Assembly: GCA_943357895.1 (NCBI GenBank)
Contig: CALRGO010000002.1
Location: 25,926-89,925 of the forward strand
DNA: 64,000 nucleotides
Origin: Parcubacteria group bacterium
GTDB lineage: Bacteria; Patescibacteriota; Minisyncoccia; UBA6257; UBA11618
Direction of reading: 5' to 3'
Shown in pieces: positions 3,622 through 40,831 of this stretch. Under the pieces are notes generated by a model. The model searched no databases, was not told where the DNA came from, and saw nothing but the letters and a program-made list of their open reading frames with translations. How positions within the stretch are numbered: position 1 is the stretch's first letter; every line of letters begins with the position of its first letter. The translations under genes were made by a program, and so were the position numbers.

Positions 3622-4197
3622 ATGCTCCCCCGTTCTATACAGAAATTCATATCCGCCTTTGCCGCCTTGCCTTCTATCGGGCCGCGACAAGCGACGCGCT
3701 TGGCGTTTTATTTAGTGTCGTTAGGTTCGGCTTCGATAGTCGACATTGCGGATGCCGCGCGGGGCTTGGCGGCGCTCTCGACCTGCCCCGACTGCTTCTT
3801 TTTTTCCGAAGGGCCGGTATGCCCCTTCTGTGGTAACCCTGCACGGCGGAAGGATGTGCTAGCCGTCGTTGAGCGGCCGACAGACGTTATAGCAATAGAG
3901 GCAACTCGCAAGTTCAACGGCGTGTATTTGGTGCTCGGCGAACTTAAAAAGACGGGCGCATTGCAGCCGGAGCAGAAGCTTAAGCTCGAGCGTGGCAAGG
4001 CGCGCGGCCCGTTTAAAGAAATACTCTTAGCGCTCGACCAAACTACCTACGGCGACTTTAACGCGCAGACAATTACGAAAGAGCTTTCGGGCGTTACGGA
4101 AAAAATAACTCGCTTAGGCCGCGGCATCCCCACCGGCGGCGAAATAGAATTTGCCGACGAGGATACCTTGGGGAGCGCTATCGAGAAGAGAAGTTGA
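3622..4197 (+). CDS. recR: recombination protein RecR
   Basis: HhH N-terminus (PSIGPRQATRLAF), C4 zinc finger CPDC...CPFC, Toprim domain; 191 aa. Confidence 0.9.
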   Translation: MLPRSIQKFISAFAALPSIGPRQATRLAFYLVSLGSASIVDIADAARGLAALSTCPDCFFFSEGPVCPFCGNPARRKDVLAVVERPTDVIAIEATRKFNGVYLVLGELKKTGALQPEQKLKLERGKARGPFKEILLALDQTTYGDFNAQTITKELSGVTEKITRLGRGIPTGGEIEFADEDTLGSAIEKRS

Positions 4198-4265
4198 TTA
4201 GAACCGTATCATTATAAAGACGGTCGTCGTTATAATGATATGATCGGGTAGTGCTGAGTAAGCCG

Positions 4266-4414
4266 GCGCGCATATACTTCTCGGGAAACGTCCTCGCTGC
4301 TCTCCTGCGGAGCAGCGGGACTCGCTCTCAGCGGCGCAATCGCCTAAAAAGGCGATACCCAGAGCTGCGCCGCCTCCGAGATGTTCCCGATAAGCATATC
4401 CACGCCGTCTTTCC
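4266..4414. repeat. copy A of a diverged inverted structured element (inverted relative to copy B)
   Basis: Reverse complement shares identical 16-mers ggaaagacggcgtgga and ggaacatctcggaggc plus agctctgggta, gagagcga, gcgcgccggct with 5154-5373; nested hairpins 4331-4373. Confidence 0.5.
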
Positions 4415-4488
4415 GCTATGTCAGCGCCATCTAATTATTGTGGATAACTTTTAACGCCCGTTAGCTGGATTATGCAATACTTAGAAGT

Positions 4489-5125
4489 ATGAATAAAAAA
4501 TTCTTACTTATTTCGATTGCCGCCGGCACCTTGCTTGCGGGGGGGGGCTTCAGCAGATGTCGCGGATTCATATAGAGAATGCATAGATACTACCGATAGG
4601 GCTTATTGTGATGCCTTGTTTCCGAGAGAGTTTGTTTATGAAAATGGATCACGATTTGTTAGGGGAAGAGACGGTTTATATTTTTACGAGTACGTTGATA
4701 TTAATGGAAGGATTGTGCGTGATGAGCGTGCGGGTGCGGGATACCCTACCATAGAGTCTATTGTAGAAGATCTTAGTAGAGGTCCTTCGTTGCCGCCCGG
4801 TCACTATCGGTCTTGCCCTTGCGGACCCGCAACGATTTCTTCGAATTCTTGTGCGTCGTGTCCTCCTGCGTACTTCCCTCCCTCTACTTCAGTGCCTAGG
4901 CCGGAAGATTATATTTATTTAATGCATCGTCCGCGTCCCTTGCGAGTGACTCTCTTAAGTCCTGTAGCCCCCTCAAGGACTAGATATTCCCGTCCAAGAA
5001 TAACCCCCGGCACTCCTCCTAGTGTGAGTATTTTACCAACTTGGCTTCTTCGAAATTTATTAGGCAACTCGCCAACGATGGATAGCGGAAGCGGACTCGG
5101 CCCTCGCTCGGGAGGCGAGCGTTAA
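4489..5125 (+). CDS. secreted proline/cysteine-rich protein, reading frame interrupted by +1 frameshift in a G9 homopolymer (4539-4547)
   Basis: ATG at 4489 encodes signal peptide MNKKFLLISIAAGTLLAGG in frame 1, which stops after the G9 run; ORF 4517-5125 continues in frame 2 as ASADVADSYREC...; removing one G fuses them and gives an AxA signal peptidase site (GGASA/DV). Confidence 0.45.
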
Positions 5126-5153
5126 AGTTGCTTCTAGATTTTTATGTCATCGA

Positions 5154-5373
5154 GGAAAGACGGCGTGGACGTGTTTTGAGGAACATCTCGGAGGCCCGAT
5201 AGCTCTGGGTAATTCGCCGCAGCGAATTTATCGGGCCGAGAGCGAATGCCTTTTTTCCGCAGGTGGGGGCTTTCTCTAAATCCGTCGTACGGATTTAGCT
5301 AGAAAACCTTATGCAAAGCGCAGCGGAGCTAACCTTTAGCTGATGTTTCCGAAAAGCACGTGCGCGCCGGCTG
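5154..5373. repeat. copy B of the diverged inverted structured element
   Basis: See copy A; nested hairpin 5193-5237 (outer stem ggcccgata/tatcgggcc, inner attcgc/gcgaat) has the same architecture as 4331-4373 but different stem sequence; about 80 bp extra insertion with two small palindromes. Confidence 0.5.
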
Positions 5374-5402
5374 ATTAGGTGATGCGTATAATTTTATCAA
5401 TC

Positions 5403-5436
5403 AAAAAACCGGCTCAGGGTTCTGAGTCGGTTTTTT
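5403..5436. terminator. bidirectional intrinsic terminator between convergent genes
   Basis: A6-ccggctcag-ggtt-ctgagtcgg-T6 (one G-U pair); serves rplU on minus strand and upstream plus-strand gene. Confidence 0.6.
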
Positions 5437-5442
5437 CTTTTC

Positions 5443-5754
5443 CTATTTAATACCAGTTATCTCCACTTCGGTGAATTCTTGGCGGTGGCCTTTCTTCTTC
5501 TTATAGCGAGCTTTCGAGTGGTATTTGAATACAATTACTTTGCGTGCCCTGCCTTGCCCTACGAGCTTCGCCGTAACCGTTGCGCCGGTAACGAGCGGGG
5601 TGCCGACGATGACTTTACCGCCGTCTTCGGTTAAGAGAACCTCCTTAAAAATAACGGAGCCGTCGGCTTCGGGCACTATTTTTTCTATCTTCAGTTTTTC
5701 GCCAACGGCCACCTTGTACTGCTTGCCGCCGGTTTTTACAATTGCGAATGCCAT
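5443..5754 (-). CDS. rplU: 50S ribosomal protein L21
   Basis: MAFAIVKTGGKQYKVAVGEKLKIEK... canonical L21 N-terminus; 103 aa. Confidence 0.9.
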   Translation of the reverse strand: MAFAIVKTGGKQYKVAVGEKLKIEKIVPEADGSVIFKEVLLTEDGGKVIVGTPLVTGATVTAKLVGQGRARKVIVFKYHSKARYKKKKGHRQEFTEVEITGIK

Positions 5755-5766
5755 TTCTTTAGGTGA

Positions 5767-6102
5767 TTAGTTAACGGTAATAATACACGATATTGTAATT
5801 ACAATCAAGAGCGCTATAAAGGCGGTTACGGCGCTTGTAATACGCGCAAGGATAGGGTTTCTGCTCACGAGCACGCCCGCAAGGCATGCATTTAAACAGG
5901 TAATAATAGCGCCTGAAAATAACATATGGAGGGCATCATATTTTTCCCCGAGGAAATCCGCTCCCCGACCGCCCAAAAAGTGGATTATGATACGGCCTTC
6001 CGTATTCGCGAGCTTTACGTAATACAGGGAAAAGCCTATGAGGAGAGTGAACGCGGCGCTTGCGAAAAGCGCCGCATCCGCGTTTTTACGTAAATCATAC
6101 AT
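5767..6102 (-). CDS. small hypothetical integral membrane protein
   Basis: Start set at internal Met (MYDLRKNADAALFASAAFTLLIGF...) 4 nt after ddl stop; the longer ORF to 6210 would overlap ddl by about 100 nt; 3-4 predicted TM helices. Confidence 0.4.
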   Translation of the reverse strand: MYDLRKNADAALFASAAFTLLIGFSLYYVKLANTEGRIIIHFLGGRGADFLGEKYDALHMLFSGAIITCLNACLAGVLVSRNPILARITSAVTAFIALLIVITISCIITVN

Positions 6103-6106
6103 ACGC

Positions 6107-7267
6107 TTATTTCCCCCTCCCGAGTTTTTTAGACCAATCCGCGTGCGCAAGAATGCTCGAGGCGAAAGTGGATGTGAAGCCTTTTTTCTTTTTATTTTTT
6201 TCAAGCGCAAGCGTAATAAGCTTCTTTACAAGTTCTGGAAGCGCTACGCCGCTCTTTTCCCATAGGTGGTGGTAGAGTGTCCCTGGCAGAGGGTTGATTT
6301 CGTTCACATATAGTTTTTTTGATTCCTTATCGTAAAGGAAGTCCACGCGCGCGGTACCTGAGCATTCGAATTTTAAAAACACTTCTTTCGCAAGATTTTG
6401 TACGGCGGCCGTCGTCGCTTCTTCGAGCTCCGCGGGGATTATAAGGCTCTGCTTTGCGTTGCCGAGCTGGGCGCCGCCGCCCGAAATATATTTATCTTCG
6501 TACGAAAAAAAGTCTTCGGTAAATACCGATTCTTGCACTAAGGAGGCACGCGGTACGTCGTTGCCTATTACGGCACACGTGAGGTCGCAAACATTCGGCA
6601 CGCCTTCTTCAACTATTACTTTTTCATCGTAGTGGAAGGCGACATCGAGCGCAAAAGAAAGCTCCTTACCATTACGCACCTTAGCGATACCGATGGATGA
6701 GCCAAGTCGCGCGGGCTTTACGAAGAGCGGCCACGCAAGGCCCGTATTTATTTTTGTCACATAATCTTCCTTTTTAGCTTCCCAGTCAGATTTATAGAAG
6801 TAGATGAATTTGGTCGTGGGGAATCCCGCCTGTTCATATAGTTGTTTTGTTAACACCTTATCCATGGCGATGGCGCTTGCCGCTACGCCGCAGCCGACGT
6901 AGGGAATATCGAACATTTCAAAGAGTCCTTGCACGGTACCGTCTTCGCCGTTTTGGCCGTGGAATGCGGGGAATGCGACGTCGATTGTAATTGTTTTCCC
7001 GAATAATCCTTTTTGGTTAAAAACCATTTTTCCGCGGGATGATTCGAGGTCGAGATTCCATTTCGCGAGCGAAGAAAAATCACTTTGTTTTTTAAAGTTC
7101 GCTATATTATGCAGTTCGTCCCCTATGTGCCAGCTACCATCTTTACCAATATAAATTGCATGCGCATCAATACCAGCCTTTTTGAGGCCTGCAAGAATGA
7201 GGTGGCCGGTCAATATTGAGATGTCGTGTTCGGGGTTCTTACCTCCGAAAAATACGCCGATAGTCAT
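6107..7267 (-). CDS. ddl: D-alanine--D-alanine ligase
   Basis: MTIGVFFGGKNPEHDISILTG N-terminus, ATP-grasp fold, adjacent to murF; C-terminal Lys-rich extension. Confidence 0.85.
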   Translation of the reverse strand: MTIGVFFGGKNPEHDISILTGHLILAGLKKAGIDAHAIYIGKDGSWHIGDELHNIANFKKQSDFSSLAKWNLDLESSRGKMVFNQKGLFGKTITIDVAFPAFHGQNGEDGTVQGLFEMFDIPYVGCGVAASAIAMDKVLTKQLYEQAGFPTTKFIYFYKSDWEAKKEDYVTKINTGLAWPLFVKPARLGSSIGIAKVRNGKELSFALDVAFHYDEKVIVEEGVPNVCDLTCAVIGNDVPRASLVQESVFTEDFFSYEDKYISGGGAQLGNAKQSLIIPAELEEATTAAVQNLAKEVFLKFECSGTARVDFLYDKESKKLYVNEINPLPGTLYHHLWEKSGVALPELVKKLITLALEKNKKKKGFTSTFASSILAHADWSKKLGRGK

Positions 7268-25941: not shown

Positions 25942-27147
25942 ATGGAAGAACCTGAAAAGAAGCATCGTGATCACCGTGAATTAGGGCAGTTGCTTGATTT
26001 ATTTTCGTTCCACGACATCGCCCCCGGCGCTGCTTTTTGGCACCCCAACGGCATGACTATTTTTCGCGTACTTGAATCTGCCGCGCGCCAGATGAACGAC
26101 CGCGCGGGCTATAAAGAAATCTCGACGCCTATTATGGTGAAGAGCGACGTATTTAAAAAATCCGGTCACTGGGAACATTACCGCAAGAACATGTTCCACT
26201 TTGTGAACCCAACGGACGAAAACGAAGAGTTGGCAATAAAGCCGATGAACTGCCCCGAATCGACGTACGTGTTTAACGCTTCGACCCGCAGTTATCGTGA
26301 CATGCCTTTGCGGTTCGCTGAATTGGGGCGCTTACACCGTAACGAGCTTTCGGGAACGTTAGGTGGGCTCTTCCGCGTGCGGCAGATGACGATGGATGAC
26401 GCGCACGTATATTGCCGCCCCGACCAAGTAGAGACGGAGATTCGGCATATCGTGGACCTCACGATGCGTTTTTACGCCGTGTTCGGCTTCAAGCCGACGT
26501 GCGTCTTGGCAACCCGCCCCGAGAAGTTTATGGGCGATGCGGCCGATTGGGATAAGGCCGAGGCGGCTTTGAAGAGCGCCCTTGCGGCAAGCGGTATGGA
26601 ATATGAATTACAAGAAGGCGAAGGCGCCTTCTACGGCCCGAAGATCGAGTTCCACTTGCGTGACTCGCAGGACCGCGATTGGCAGATGGGTACGGCTCAG
26701 CTGGACCTCGTAATGCTTCCTAAACAGTTTGAGACGCAGTACGTGGACGAAAGCGGCGAAAAGAAAATGCCATGGGTGATCCACCGCGCCATATTCGGCA
26801 CCTTTGAGCGCTTCATCGGCATGATGCTCGAGCACACGGATGGCACGCTCCCCGTTTGGCTCGCGCCCGTACAAGCAACAGTGCTTTATGTGAACGACAG
26901 TCAGCGTGCCTATGCAGAGGAAGTGGTTGCAGCGCTCGTAGCGGCCGGCGTGCGTGCAGAACTAGATACGCAAAACGCCACCTTAGGTAAAAAAATCCGC
27001 GCAGCGGAAGTGCTGCGCATCCCCGTGATAGCCGTAATAGGCGAAAAGGAAGTCGCTGCCCGTACCGTAAGCGTACGCAACGACGTAAAGCCGTTCGATG
27101 TCTTCATCGCGGATACTGCTAAAGCGGCGAAGATTCCGATTATTTAG
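25942..27147 (+). CDS. thrS: threonine--tRNA ligase, N-terminally truncated (catalytic + anticodon-binding domains only)
   Basis: Begins at the HRDHRELGQLLDLF motif, which lies ~residue 240 of full-length ThrRS; class II motifs and C-terminal anticodon-binding domain present; no TGS or editing domain encoded upstream. Confidence 0.8.
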   Translation: MEEPEKKHRDHRELGQLLDLFSFHDIAPGAAFWHPNGMTIFRVLESAARQMNDRAGYKEISTPIMVKSDVFKKSGHWEHYRKNMFHFVNPTDENEELAIKPMNCPESTYVFNASTRSYRDMPLRFAELGRLHRNELSGTLGGLFRVRQMTMDDAHVYCRPDQVETEIRHIVDLTMRFYAVFGFKPTCVLATRPEKFMGDAADWDKAEAALKSALAASGMEYELQEGEGAFYGPKIEFHLRDSQDRDWQMGTAQLDLVMLPKQFETQYVDESGEKKMPWVIHRAIFGTFERFIGMMLEHTDGTLPVWLAPVQATVLYVNDSQRAYAEEVVAALVAAGVRAELDTQNATLGKKIRAAEVLRIPVIAVIGEKEVAARTVSVRNDVKPFDVFIADTAKAAKIPII

Positions 27148-27157
27148 TAATAGTAAA

Positions 27158-27191
27158 TAAAAAAACTAAGGAGCTCTTCCTTAGTTTTTTT
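27158..27191. terminator. bidirectional intrinsic terminator between thrS and gatB
   Basis: A8-ctaagga-gctct-tccttag-T7. Confidence 0.65.
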
Positions 27192-27201
27192 ATTCCTTTT
27201 T

Positions 27202-28611
27202 TTATTTAAGTAGACGTTCAAAAATTTCCCTAAGGAGGGCGGGGTTGCCGGTGCCTTTCAGTTCTTTCATTGCCTTACCTACTAAAAAGTGCAGGGATTC
27301 TAGTTTTCCTTTTTTGTAGTCTTCGAGTGCTTTGGGGTTTTCTGCGAGGATTTTTTGCGCCGTTTCTTCGAGTCCTGCCGCGTCTGAAACTTGGTGGAGG
27401 TTTTTTTCGGTAACCGTTGCTTCGGCTGTGGCACCGGTTTTTACCATATGTGTTAAGGCGTCTTTCGCGCCGCGACTACCTACTTCGCCTTTCGCTACCA
27501 TCGCTACGAGGGACGCGAAGTTAGCGGGCGTTAGTTTCAGACCCGTAAATTGCATGCCGTCTTTTTTCATCATTCCCCATAAGTCGCTCGTGAAGTAGTT
27601 GAGGAGTAAGGCGTAGTTGGGTGTGGCGTCGAGTTCTTTGAGTTCGCTTGCCGCTTCCTCAAAGAATTCTGCTGCTGCGCGGTCTTCGGTTACCACATAG
27701 GAATCCACCTCCTTCATGCCGTATTCATTAATAAAGCGCGCGCGCTTTTCGTGCGGTAGTTCAGGGATGGCCGCTTTAAGCGCTTCTAAATCGAAGGCGT
27801 CTGCATACATCGGCGGCAAGTCCGGCTCGGGGAAATAGCGGTAGTCGTGCGCATCTTCTTTCGTGCGCTGGCTTACGGTAATCCCCTTTTCCGCGTTCCA
27901 TCCGCGCGTTTCTTGAATTATTTTTTCACCTGAGTCGAGCGCTGCCGCGTGTCGCTTGTATTCGTATTCAATGGCGTCATGAACGGCCTTAAACGAATTG
28001 ATGTTTTTAACTTCAACTTTCGTGCCCATGTTTATAGAGATGTTGGCTTCCAAGCGCATGAGGCCTTTTTCCATATCAGCGTCGGACGTCCCCAAGTAGC
28101 GTAAAATGCGGCGCAGTTCTTCACCGAAGGCCGCAGCTTCTTCTGCTGTCCTAATATCCGGCTCTGTGACTATTTCCATAAGGGGCGCGCCCGCGCGGTT
28201 AAAATTAACGAGCGATTCGTTTCCAGTGTGCGTCAAGCTGCCCGCGTCTTCTTCTAAATGGATGCGCGTGATGCGGATGCCGTTCAAATTGCCACCTAAA
28301 ACGAGTGGTTCGTCGTACTGCGATATTTGGTAGCCCTTGGGTAGGTCGGGATAAAAATAGTTTTTGCGGTCGAACTTCGACCGGCCTTTAGGGAATACCG
28401 TGCCGCCCAAGGCCAAGCCGAGCTGGAGTACCAGTTCAACGGCCTTCTTATTAATGGTTGGCAGCGTGCCGAGGTGGCCCGTACAGACGGGGCAAACATT
28501 AACGTTCGGATGCGTTTCGTCGGGGTCGTTAACGCAGTCGCAGAACATCTTCGTGCGCGTTTTCAGTTCCACGTGGATTTCGAGACCGACGGTAAGTTGG
28601 CGTTCTTCCAT
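27202..28611 (-). CDS. gatB: Asp-tRNA(Asn)/Glu-tRNA(Gln) amidotransferase subunit B
   Basis: GLEIHVELKTRTKMFCDC N-terminus, GatB/YqeY C-terminal domain. Confidence 0.9.
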   Translation of the reverse strand: MEERQLTVGLEIHVELKTRTKMFCDCVNDPDETHPNVNVCPVCTGHLGTLPTINKKAVELVLQLGLALGGTVFPKGRSKFDRKNYFYPDLPKGYQISQYDEPLVLGGNLNGIRITRIHLEEDAGSLTHTGNESLVNFNRAGAPLMEIVTEPDIRTAEEAAAFGEELRRILRYLGTSDADMEKGLMRLEANISINMGTKVEVKNINSFKAVHDAIEYEYKRHAAALDSGEKIIQETRGWNAEKGITVSQRTKEDAHDYRYFPEPDLPPMYADAFDLEALKAAIPELPHEKRARFINEYGMKEVDSYVVTEDRAAAEFFEEAASELKELDATPNYALLLNYFTSDLWGMMKKDGMQFTGLKLTPANFASLVAMVAKGEVGSRGAKDALTHMVKTGATAEATVTEKNLHQVSDAAGLEETAQKILAENPKALEDYKKGKLESLHFLVGKAMKELKGTGNPALLREIFERLLK

Positions 28612-39351: not shown

Positions 39352-40379
39352 AATATCTTGTTACTGGTGGCTCGGGTTTTCTCGGTATTAATCTTATCAG
39401 GCATCTTCTTGGGGAGGGCGCCGAAGTTCGCTCTTTTGATATCGCGGATTTTACGTATCCTGAGGCGGCATACGTGGATGCCGTTTTAGGCGACGTGCGG
39501 GATAGCGCGTCCGTTGCCCGCGCCATGCGCGGTGTTGATGCGGTAATACATTGCGCCGCGGCGCTTCCTTTGTATTCCGATTACGACATCGTATCTACTG
39601 ACGTCTCAGGAACGGAAAATATTCTTGCCGCGGCGGCGTCGGCGGGTGTCTCGCGTGTTGTGTATATATCCTCTACCGCCGTTTACGGAATTTTAAGCGC
39701 TTGCCTAGCGGATGAAGATACGCCGCTCGTCGGCGTTGGTCCGTACGGTAAAGCAAAGATTGACGCCGAGGCATTGTGCCTTTCGTACCGCAGGCGTGGC
39801 ATGTGCGTCCCTATCCTCCGTCCTAAATCATTCGTCGGTCCCGAGCGACTTGGTATATTCTCCTTGTTATACGAATGGGCGTTTTCAGGAAGGAATTTCC
39901 CCATCATCGGCAGTGGGCACAACCGGTACCAGCTTCTTGATGTCGCCGATTTATGCTCTTTTATTTCAACAGTATTGCATGCTGACGCCCGTATAGCAAA
40001 CGACACATTTAATGTCGGCGCGCGGGAATTTTCAACCGTACGTGAGGAATATCAAGCGGTGCTCGATCGCGCGGGGCACGGCAAGCGCGTTATTTCGTTT
40101 CCTGCCGGCCCCGCCATAGCTGCTTTGCGTATGCTTCACGCATGCCGTCTTTCGCCGGTCTATCCATGGGTTTACGAGACTGCAGGTAAGGATTCGTACG
40201 TTTCCATTGCGAAAGCCGAGCGGGAGCTGGGATATTCGCCGCTATATTCCAATATGGACGCACTATTGCGCAATTACGAGTGGTATATTGCTAACCGTCC
40301 GGCCTCCGGCGCGCGGGGTATATCCCACCGAACATCATGGAGGGGGGGCATGCTTGATTTTCTTAAATTATTTTTTTGA
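39348..40379 (+). CDS. NAD-dependent epimerase/dehydratase (extended SDR)
   Basis: VTGGSGFLG Rossmann motif, catalytic YGKAK (YxxxK); G7 homopolymer near 3' end (40343-40349). Confidence 0.8.
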   Translation: MKYLVTGGSGFLGINLIRHLLGEGAEVRSFDIADFTYPEAAYVDAVLGDVRDSASVARAMRGVDAVIHCAAALPLYSDYDIVSTDVSGTENILAAAASAGVSRVVYISSTAVYGILSACLADEDTPLVGVGPYGKAKIDAEALCLSYRRRGMCVPILRPKSFVGPERLGIFSLLYEWAFSGRNFPIIGSGHNRYQLLDVADLCSFISTVLHADARIANDTFNVGAREFSTVREEYQAVLDRAGHGKRVISFPAGPAIAALRMLHACRLSPVYPWVYETAGKDSYVSIAKAERELGYSPLYSNMDALLRNYEWYIANRPASGARGISHRTSWRGGMLDFLKLFF

Positions 40380-40831
40380 TGGCTAGTCCGCTTCATTATT
40401 TTTTCGAACTTGATCTTACGGCTTTCTCTCAAGACGTTTTTATTGTTGATGTTGAGGGTACAATTGCCCTACACGGGGCACATGCGGCGGATCCGGCTTC
40501 AGCTCGCAATATGGACGCCGTGCGTAAAGAAAAAAATATATTTCTTTGTTCGAATGCGCTTGATCAGTTGCGTATCGAGCGCATAGCCGCCGCTATCAAT
40601 GTCGGCTGCATCGCCTTATGGGGGGGGAAGCCGTGGGGGCGATTACCGGCCAGATTTCCGCGTAGTTCCGCTATAGTAGTTTTTGGCGATAAGTTCTTAA
40701 CCGACGGGTTATTCGCTTGGCGTATTGGTGCCCGTTTTATAAGAGTTCGCCGTCTTGTTTGCGGGAAGGAATCATTTCTAGAAAAGATATTTTTAAAAAT
40801 AGATGATTATCTCGCCTTATTTTTAAAATGA
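40376..40831 (+). CDS. HAD-superfamily phosphatase-like protein
   Basis: Motif I-like FIVDVEGT and motif IV-like VVFGDKFLTDG; 151 aa; contains in-frame G8 tract (40620-40627). Confidence 0.4.
   Translation: MMASPLHYFFELDLTAFSQDVFIVDVEGTIALHGAHAADPASARNMDAVRKEKNIFLCSNALDQLRIERIAAAINVGCIALWGGKPWGRLPARFPRSSAIVVFGDKFLTDGLFAWRIGARFIRVRRLVCGKESFLEKIFLKIDDYLALFLK

What the first reader, a model, noticed from the sequence alone, without database searches (positions are those of the whole stretch)
4489..4560. G9 homopolymer splits a signal peptide from its mature secreted protein (phase-variation or frameshift candidate)
ATG 4489 encodes MNKKFLLISIAAGTLLAGG, then the G9 tract (4539-4547) throws the frame into a stop 14 codons later. 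The long ORF 4517-5125 is in the +1 frame and begins exactly where a mature domain should. Deleting one G produces ...LLAGGASA/DVADSYREC..., a textbook Sec signal with an AxA cleavage site. Tracts of G7 and G8 also sit in-frame in the SDR (40343-40349) and HAD (40620-40627) genes of the glycan island. Homopolymeric G tracts of this length are classic slipped-strand phase-variation switches for surface proteins and glycosylation genes. The gene is also bracketed by the inverted elements above.
Basis: seen in the sequence. Interest (0 to 1): 0.6.

Follow-up and report, generated by a model that had tools for sequence, protein, structure and literature searches.

The report
Poly-G switch in a secreted-protein gene
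A run of nine G's breaks the reading frame of a small secreted-protein gene in a Saccharibacteria (CPR) genome just after its signal peptide. Run-length differences between samples and relatives make it look like a slippage-driven on/off switch that is currently off, carried on a strain-variable gene cassette.

Summary
G9 lies at 4539-4547. The ATG at 4489 encodes a Sec-type signal peptide that runs out of frame, and removing one G fuses it to the 4548-5125 ORF.

The gene is real. A syntenic ortholog in another species (P0002, 244 aa) is intact and has G8 at the same codons. dN/dS is about 0.35-0.43, and the indels between the two genes preserve the frame.

The same strain was recovered in other assemblies with G9 (ENA, Logan) and once with G10. 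That extra G is the only difference in 4,579 nt. No in-frame version of this strain's gene exists in a collection of about 15 billion proteins.

An unrelated secreted, Cys-rich gene in a related Saccharibacteria genome also carries a G9, in frame, inside its signal peptide. Such runs are otherwise rare: three runs of G/C of 8 or more in about 142 kb.

The G7 and G8 tracts in the glycan island are invariant and in frame, so they show no sign of switching.

The gene sits on a 1.24-kb cassette that is missing from strains of the same species. It is flanked by inverted copies of an undescribed, covarying ~160-nt structured repeat.

Most likely this is a pilC-like poly-G contingency locus in the OFF state (confidence about 0.5). 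The main rival is a recently frameshifted pseudogene. It is a new member of a known kind, in a phylum reported to lack MutS/MutL.

The parts
4489..4575 (+). 5' fragment of the gene. It holds the start codon and the signal peptide (MNKKFLLISIAAGTLLAGG), then an out-of-frame tail ending at a TAG stop.
4539..4547 (+). G9 homopolymer, the frameshift point. G8 or G11 would be in frame. G9 and G10 are out of frame.
4548..5125 (+). Mature-protein reading frame (+1 relative to the ATG), open to the stop at 5123-5125. It is about 72% identical over aligned residues to ortholog P0002 (BLASTP: 60% with 100% query coverage). No other disabling mutation is present.
4260..4418 (+). Left copy of a ~160-nt structured repeat, in the same orientation as the gene.
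   Evidence: 151.5 bits
5150..5373 (-). Right copy of the structured repeat, inverted, with a ~65-nt internal insertion.
   Evidence: 119.7 bits
4196..5439 (.). Strain-variable cassette. In strains of the same species (95-99% identical flanks) this 1,244-nt stretch is replaced by a 29-nt spacer carrying a terminator hairpin.
4207..4240 (+). Hairpin downstream of recR, at the left edge of the cassette. A similar hairpin precedes the left element in L001, L009 and L036.
5403..5436 (.). Terminator-like hairpin (15-bp stem, A run before and T run after) between the right element and the rplU stop codon.
40620..40627 (+). Control tract: G8, in frame, in a 151-aa ORF of unknown family. It is invariant in the three other assemblies read.
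40342..40348 (+). Control tract: G7, in frame, near the 3' end of an NAD-dependent epimerase gene. It is invariant in the three other assemblies read.

Best explanation
The locus is a contingency (phase-variable) gene of a Saccharibacteria bacterium. A poly-G tract sits inside the signal-peptide-coding part of an accessory gene for a small, orphan, Cys- and Pro-rich secreted protein. Slipped-strand mispairing during replication adds or removes a G. With G8 (or G11) the signal peptide is fused to the mature domain and the protein is exported. With G9 or G10 translation stops after 28 or 32 codons and nothing is made. The sequenced population is in the OFF state (G9). Shown: the frame logic, the ON length in the ortholog, length differences between samples, and the same design in an unrelated secreted gene. 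Inferred: that switching is frequent, reversible and used by the organism, and that the reported lack of MutS/MutL in Saccharibacteria raises the slippage rate.
For: 1. G9 and the frame logic are confirmed. 2. The gene is real. The intact syntenic ortholog P0002 has the same signal peptide. dN/dS is 0.35 in the N-domain and 0.43 overall. The 40-codon and 7-codon indels keep the frame, and the C-terminus is conserved. 3. The ortholog has G8 at the same codons (GCG GGG GGG GCT) in two assemblies. 4. Same-strain assemblies show G9 in the window, in ENA ERZ27280257 and in Logan ERR3719150, and G10 in Logan ERR5863101. The extra G is the only difference in 4,579 nt. 5. The same MEGAHIT-type pipeline gives G8 for one lineage and G9 for the other in an identical local context, which argues against a context-specific sequencing error. 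6. A second, non-homologous cassette gene (L017 3628-4761, 377 aa, 27 Cys, signal peptide MRYISSIGGGLLVSFIFLTTAFA) has an in-frame G9 at codons 8-10. Two of the three G/C runs of 8 or more in 142.6 kb fall in these two signal-peptide segments (P about 7e-7). 7. GGG makes up only 18.6% of Gly codons and 5 of 95 Gly-Gly pairs are GGG-GGG, so the tracts are not the default coding choice. 8. The gene is dispensable and strain-variable, as contingency genes usually are. 9. Jaffe et al. 2021 (PMC8406219) found no MutS or MutL in Saccharibacteria. Poly-G tracts near the 5' end of coding regions are an established switch, for example pilC in Neisseria (PMC5320596).
Against: No ON version (G8 or G11) of this strain's gene exists in the protein collection, so all recovered consensus sequences of this strain are OFF (only P0001 and P0002). 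Only one of about five readable same-strain assemblies departs from G9, and a single G10 in a short Logan contig could be a homopolymer error. The tract's conservation in the ortholog is weak evidence, because the signal-peptide DNA is almost identical anyway (dS 0.06). Poly-G tracts are not enriched in the window, and the other two tracts are invariant. No read-level data could be examined. The protein's function is unknown.
Confidence: 0.5

Rival explanations
1. Recent pseudogene. A one-base slip in a poly-G run that arose by chance inactivated a dispensable accessory gene in this strain. The gene is now decaying, and there is no selected, reversible switching.
For: All same-strain assemblies are out of frame: G9 four times (the window plus three others) and G10 once, so the observed change went further from the in-frame length. 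No ON protein of this strain is in the database. The whole cassette is absent from sister strains, so the gene is dispensable. dN/dS of 0.35-0.48 is fairly relaxed. A G/C run of 9 or more is not improbable in 64 kb.
Against: There is no second disabling mutation in 193 downstream codons. The tract is built from the less-used GGG codon. An unrelated secreted gene in a relative has the same G9-in-signal-peptide design, in frame. The G8 ortholog is intact.
Confidence: 0.28
2. Sequencing or assembly artefact. The true tract is G8 and the extra G is a homopolymer miscall carried into the consensus.
For: Long G runs are error-prone on several platforms. One assembly gives G10, which shows that the length call is not fully stable.
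Against: G9 is reproduced in the NCBI contig, in an ENA MEGAHIT contig of 206 kb and in a Logan contig seen in two samples. The identical local context is assembled as G8 in the ortholog lineage, in two assemblies. The other long ORFs of the window are intact, and the G8 and G7 tracts are stable in three assemblies, so there is no general homopolymer problem.
Confidence: 0.07
3. Programmed recoding. G9 is the functional allele, and the full-length protein is made by RNA-polymerase slippage on the G run or by +1 ribosomal frameshifting on GGG GGG GGC.
For: A run of G's allows tRNA-Gly or the nascent RNA to re-pair after a one-base shift (inference from the sequence). Transcriptional slippage on homopolymers of 9 or more is established for A/T runs (general knowledge).
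Against: The ortholog is encoded in a single frame with G8, so no recoding is needed there. No stimulatory element such as a rare or stop codon follows the run, and no downstream structure was found. G10 also occurs and would need a different shift. Slippage on G/C runs is known to be less efficient than on A/T runs (general knowledge, not tested here).
Confidence: 0.05

Closest known systems
Neisseria gonorrhoeae / N. meningitidis pilC1 and pilC2 poly-G translational phase variation (Jonsson et al. 1991, as summarised in PMC5320596)
   Same: [quoted passage not shown] From my own recollection of Jonsson et al. 1991, not checked here, the pilC tract lies in the signal-peptide-coding part. One-base length changes switch the frame on and off. 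Tract lengths of G9 to G15 differ between strains.
   Different: The organism here is a Saccharibacteria (CPR) bacterium and the protein is an orphan unrelated to PilC. Only G8, G9 and G10 have been seen. Reversibility has not been demonstrated, and no ON form is seen in this strain.
Campylobacter jejuni and Helicobacter pylori poly-G/C contingency loci (PMC8355987, PMC8437040, PMC4209511)
   Same: Intragenic G/C homopolymers of about 8-13 nt control surface-structure genes. That these bacteria lack MutS/MutL-type mismatch repair is my general knowledge. The same absence is reported for Saccharibacteria (PMC8406219).
   Different: Those genomes carry dozens of such tracts, concentrated in glycan and flagellar loci. 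Here the tracts are not over-represented, and the two in the glycan island are invariant.
Accessory genes bracketed by two inverted MITE copies (for example integron mobilization units, or Correia/NEMIS elements in Neisseria). This is recalled from general knowledge, not tested.
   Same: Two inverted copies of a short non-coding repeat flank a cargo gene. Presence or absence varies between strains. The repeat is multi-copy in the genome.
   Different: The repeat here shows extensive compensatory base-pair changes in internal hairpins: 31 of 47 predicted pairs. Solo copies have a consistent orientation relative to the upstream gene. No target-site duplication or transposase was identified, so membership in any MITE family is not established.

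Membership tests
Simple-sequence-repeat (homopolymer) translational phase variation / contingency locus | A hypermutable repeat (poly-G/C of about 7 or more) lies within the 5' part of the coding sequence. | tested here: met
   G9 at 4539-4547, which is 50 nt after the ATG.
Simple-sequence-repeat (homopolymer) translational phase variation / contingency locus | Changes in repeat length move the gene between an intact frame and a truncated frame. | tested here: met
   G8 gives an intact 211-aa protein. G9 and G10 give 28- and 32-codon products. The G8 ortholog is intact.
Simple-sequence-repeat (homopolymer) translational phase variation / contingency locus | Tract length varies within a strain or between closely related isolates while the flanks stay identical. 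| tested here: met
   G9 in the window, ERZ27280257 and ERR3719150, against G10 in ERR5863101. The extra G is the only difference in 4,579 nt. This rests on consensus assemblies only, and on a single variant.
Simple-sequence-repeat (homopolymer) translational phase variation / contingency locus | Both ON and OFF states occur in the same strain or population (reversibility). | tested here: not met
   No in-frame version of this strain's protein was found among 5.8 billion clusters. ON is seen only in the ortholog species. This lowers the claim but does not exclude minority ON cells.
Simple-sequence-repeat (homopolymer) translational phase variation / contingency locus | Read-level length heterogeneity above the sequencing-error baseline, with a high switching rate. 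| not testable with these tools
   No raw reads or cultures were available.
Simple-sequence-repeat (homopolymer) translational phase variation / contingency locus | The gene encodes a surface, secreted or surface-modifying product. | tested here: inconclusive
   The N-terminus has n-, h- and c-regions and an ASA site by inspection and hydropathy. No signal-peptide predictor was available, and the protein has no known family.
Sec (SPase I) signal peptide | A positively charged n-region, a hydrophobic h-region of 10-15 residues, small residues at -3 and -1, and no lipobox Cys. | tested here: met
   MNKK / FLLISIAAGTLLAGG / ASA|D. KD(15) is 1.98 at residues 5-19, and there is no Cys at +1. This was checked by rule, not with SignalP.
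Unitary pseudogene | Several independent disabling mutations and/or loss of coding constraint. | tested here: not met
   There is a single frameshift. The downstream 193 codons are open. dN/dS is 0.35-0.43 against the ortholog, and the indels preserve the frame. A very recent pseudogene cannot be excluded.
Rfam RNA families (for the flanking ~160-nt elements) | A match to a curated covariance model. | tested here: not met
   There was no hit at gathering score in the window and nothing convincing at E up to 5 in 4150-5450.
MITE / transposon terminal inverted repeats (for the flanking elements) | Target-site duplications, a cognate transposase, and clean empty sites. | tested here: inconclusive
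   Empty sites exist in the same species, but the whole intergenic region differs, so no precise junction or duplication could be read. No transposase is nearby, and there are no copies in viral contigs.

The most novel reading that the evidence does not exclude
Saccharibacteria (and at least one other CPR lineage) may carry a previously undescribed cassette system. In it, inverted pairs of a ~160-nt structured repeat bracket and exchange accessory genes at junctions of convergent housekeeping genes (recR/rplU, thrS/gatB). The cargo genes that encode secreted proteins would be under poly-G contingency control. In an episymbiont lineage reported to lack mismatch repair, this would act as a surface-variation toolkit. 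The cassette here is much younger than its flanks (dS 0.26-0.34 against 1.0-1.9). Different cargo occupies the same site in different genomes: a secreted Cys-rich protein, a sigma-70-like protein, and small orphan proteins.
Probability: 0.35. Interest if true: 0.7.

Novelty: new member of a known kind. Interest (0 to 1): 0.5.

Why it matters
CPR/Saccharibacteria are ultrasmall episymbionts whose lifestyle depends on surface contact with host bacteria. How they vary their surface is largely unknown. Literature searches here found no description of homopolymer-based phase variation in Saccharibacteria or Patescibacteria. If confirmed, this would extend a classic pathogen strategy to the CPR. It would tie in with the reported absence of MutS/MutL in Saccharibacteria. 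It would also flag a set of orphan secreted proteins as likely host- or phage-interaction factors. On the practical side, such genes are mis-annotated as truncated ORFs, as with P0001 here, or not called at all, as in the ENA contig. The flanking structured repeat and the cassette polymorphism are a separate and possibly more novel lead.

Tried and rejected
- **Function of the protein.** Pfam, PHROGs and PADLOC gave no match for the repaired protein or for P0002.
- **Remote homologs.** A word-indexed search of 5.8 billion proteins found only the window's own ORF and one ortholog. An exhaustive HMMER search of 1.84 billion representatives added only four weak hits (E between 1e-6 and 1e-3), probably low-complexity proline-rich matches.
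- **Structure.** AlphaFold2 on P0002 with a two-sequence alignment gave mean pLDDT 44.5, so no fold search was run.
- **The second cassette protein (L017).** It is also an orphan.
- **Flanking elements.** Rfam gave nothing, either at gathering score or at E up to 5. The IMG/VR scan gave 0 hits. The promoter scan found no sigma-70-like site upstream of the gene.
- **More same-strain contigs.** Larger flanks did not reveal the hidden contigs. A small flank around a spurious 38-aa ORF did reveal one more, with G9. P0001 itself is not indexed by position.
- **Source of the samples.** A literature search for the run and assembly accessions found nothing, so the environment of the source samples is unknown. 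Related copies come from JGI metagenomes and from contigs labelled Hain-H51.
- **Element encoding a peptide.** An ORF recurs on the reverse strand of the element, but this was rejected. The translated sequence is not conserved where the stems covary.
- **Which strand of the element functions.** This was not resolved: G.U 44 against A.C 22 overall, and 9 against 22 without two invariant G.U pairs.

Full report
**1. The observation**

The window reads ...ATG AAT AAA AAA TTC TTA CTT ATT TCG ATT GCC GCC GGC ACC TTG CTT GCG GGG GGG GGC TTC... from 4489, with nine G's at 4539-4547. The ATG frame gives MNKKFLLISIAAGTLLAGGGFSRCRGFI and stops at 4573-4575. A 202-codon ORF (4517-5125) runs in the +1 frame. 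Removing one G gives a 211-aa protein, MNKKFLLISIAAGTLLAGGASA|DVADSYREC....

By rule, the N-terminus is a Sec/SPase I signal. It has two Lys, a 15-residue hydrophobic core that is the hydropathy maximum of the protein (1.98), Ala at -3 and -1, and no lipobox Cys.

One G/C run of 9 or more in 64 kb is not remarkable by itself: 0.32 are expected under a first-order Markov model, and runs of 8 or more number 2 against 1.2 expected.

**2. The gene is real**

Of 5.8 billion protein clusters, only two match. P0001 is this contig's own truncated ORF. P0002 is a 244-aa intact protein with the same signal peptide. P0002 lies in the same place, between recR and rplU-ddl-murF, in an ENA contig and in an NCBI metagenome contig.

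- Against P0002, the repaired gene has dN/dS of 0.35 in the N-terminal domain and 0.43 overall.
- The two indels, of 40 and 7 codons, keep the frame.
- The C-terminal DSGSGLGPRSGG is conserved.
- The 193 codons after the tract contain no further disabling change.

The family is an orphan. It has no Pfam, PHROGs or PADLOC match. An exhaustive HMMER search of 1.84 billion representatives found nothing convincing. The AlphaFold model was unusable, with pLDDT 44.5.

**3. Tract lengths elsewhere**

The ortholog has G8 at the same codons (GCG GGG GGG GCT), in frame, in both assemblies. Contigs that encode a RecR identical to the window's gave further copies of the same strain:

| Source | Tract | Note |
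|---|---|---|
| Window (NCBI contig) | G9 | |
| ENA ERZ27280257, 206-kb contig | G9 | identical to the window over the cassette and 14.2 kb |
| Logan ERR3719150 | G9 | contig seen in two samples |
| Logan ERR5863101 | G10 | the extra G is the only difference in 4,579 nt |
| Ortholog species, two assemblies | G8 | in frame |

So G8, G9 and G10 are all observed, and G9 is reproduced by three different assembly pipelines. A simple consensus error is therefore unlikely. The identical local context is also assembled as G8 in the ortholog lineage.

No in-frame protein of this strain exists in the collection. All recovered consensus sequences of this strain are OFF.

**4. The design recurs**

Searching public genomes for the conserved core of the flanking repeat found a related Ca. 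Saccharibacteria MAG, CAYTBX01. Its thrS and gatB are 85-88% identical to the window's. In that genome, between thrS and gatB, two inverted copies of the repeat bracket a different gene (L017 3628-4761). It encodes 377 aa with 27 Cys and the signal peptide MRYISSIGGGLLVSFIFLTTAFA. Its Gly8-Gly10 are encoded by an in-frame G9.

In the window plus 78.6 kb of related loci there are only three G/C runs of 8 or more. Two of them lie in the signal-peptide segments of these two unrelated secreted genes (P about 7e-7). GGG is a minority Gly codon, at 18.6%.

Cassette cargo genes without signal peptides have no such tract. These are a sigma-70-like gene in L036, a 108-aa protein in L013 and a 95-aa protein in L042.

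**5. Controls**

The G7 at 40342-40348 lies in an NAD-dependent epimerase gene. The G8 at 40620-40627 lies in a 151-aa ORF with no Pfam match, so it is not demonstrably a HAD gene. Both are identical in the three other assemblies read, out of 15 contigs that carry the same neighbouring glycosyltransferase. They show no evidence of switching.

**6. Context**

The gene lies on a strain-variable cassette. Strains of the same species have 95-99% identical flanks; one is 99.3% identical over 9.3 kb. In those strains a 29-nt terminator spacer replaces window 4196-5439.

The cassette is bounded by inverted copies of a ~160-nt repeat, at 4260-4418 (+) and 5150-5373 (-). Its predicted structure is strongly supported by covariation: 31 of 47 pairs show compensatory changes among 18 copies (model R1). 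The repeat is absent from Rfam and from IMG/VR. It is multi-copy in Saccharibacteria, and one copy occurs in a Harrisonbacteria MAG.

Between the window and the ortholog genome, the cassette gene has dS of 0.26-0.34. The adjacent rplU and ddl have dS of 1.0 and 1.9. The cassette is therefore much younger than its surroundings, which points to horizontal exchange.

**7. Mechanism**

The best-supported reading is a pilC-like translational contingency switch. Slipped-strand mispairing in the G run toggles export and production of an accessory secreted protein, and the sampled populations are OFF. Jaffe et al. 2021 found neither MutS nor MutL in Saccharibacteria (PMC8406219). As in Campylobacter and Helicobacter, that absence would make G runs highly unstable; this step is inferred.

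The frame logic, the ON and OFF alleles and the recurrence are shown. Frequency, reversibility and benefit are inferred.

- **Main rival, confidence about 0.28.** A recent one-way frameshift in a dispensable gene.
- **Artefact, about 0.07.**
- **Transcriptional or ribosomal recoding, about 0.05.**

**8. Comparison and novelty**

The locus works like Neisseria pilC and the Campylobacter and Helicobacter poly-G loci (PMC5320596, PMC8355987). It meets the structural criteria of a contingency locus. It fails one criterion, ON and OFF states in the same strain, and the decisive criterion of read-level heterogeneity could not be tested.

Literature searches found no report of homopolymer phase variation in Saccharibacteria or Patescibacteria. 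I rate it a new member of a known kind, of moderate interest. The flanking structured repeat and cassette system is the more novel lead, and it lies outside the finding as it was written.

Noticed in passing
window 4260-4418 (+) and 5150-5373 (-); also L001, L011-L015, L017, L018, L027, L032, L033, L036, L038, L039, L042-L046: This is a ~160-nt repeat with a conserved multi-stem structure. 31 of 47 predicted pairs show compensatory changes among 18 copies, and the conserved cores are TACCCWGAGCT and YCCGAGATGTTCC. It is absent from Rfam and IMG/VR. It is multi-copy in a Ca. Saccharibacteria MAG, and one copy occurs in Ca. Harrisonbacteria. Which strand functions is unresolved.
   Followed up: partly
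window 4196-5439, compared with L004, L005, L007, L008, L048-L050: The whole 1.24-kb cassette (hairpins, both repeats and the gene) is missing in strains of the same species, whose flanks are 95-99% identical. A 29-nt spacer with a different terminator hairpin takes its place. No clean junction or target duplication could be read.
   Followed up: partly
L017 3407-4933 and L036 2444-3886, compared with window 27147-27202: At the thrS/gatB junction, one relative has a cassette with a Cys-rich secreted gene, another has a cassette with a sigma-70-like gene (Pfam regions 2 and 3), and the window has no cassette. Different cargo therefore occupies the same site.
   Followed up: partly
L013 6013-6987; L042 276-890: There are further repeat-associated cargo genes. 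One is a 108-aa Cys-rich protein between inverted copies. The other is a 95-aa orphan behind a single copy at the recR/rplU junction, with a clear TTGACT...TATATT promoter-like site and an AAGGAG ribosome-binding site.
   Followed up: no
L009 1073-1264, compared with window 5388-5198: In another strain (93% identical recR), the repeat next to recR is the window's right-hand type, including its ~65-nt insertion and outer flank. The cassette may sit in the opposite orientation there. The contig ends inside the repeat.
   Followed up: no
window 4489-5125 compared with 5443-7267, against L001: Synonymous divergence of the cassette gene (dS 0.26-0.34, and 0.06 in the signal peptide) is far lower than that of the adjacent rplU (1.0) and ddl (1.9). 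This indicates recent transfer or recombination of the cassette between lineages.
   Followed up: partly
L011, L012, L013, L014, L018 (solo repeat copies): All five solo copies that could be assessed lie downstream of the preceding gene and in the same orientation as it. This hints at an orientation-dependent role, such as a 3'-UTR or terminator-associated element, rather than random MITE insertion.
   Followed up: no
window 5093-5121: A GC-rich hairpin (CCTCGCTCGGGAGGCGAGCG) overlaps the last codons of the gene. It is conserved at the DNA level in the ortholog, together with the C-terminal DSGSGLGPRSGG. It could be a terminator or part of the cassette end rather than a protein motif.
   Followed up: no
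window 40376-40831: The 151-aa ORF carrying the in-frame G8 has no Pfam match at E up to 0.001.
   Followed up: partly
L036 2612-2618: A C7 run lies just after the left repeat, about 108 nt upstream of the sigma-like cargo gene's ATG. It is too short and isolated to interpret.
   Followed up: no
window 5767-6210 (-); L003 5146-5481: A conserved 111-aa hydrophobic protein of unknown family lies between rplU and ddl in all related contigs. The window's ORF list extends it to 147 aa from an upstream TTG.
   Followed up: no
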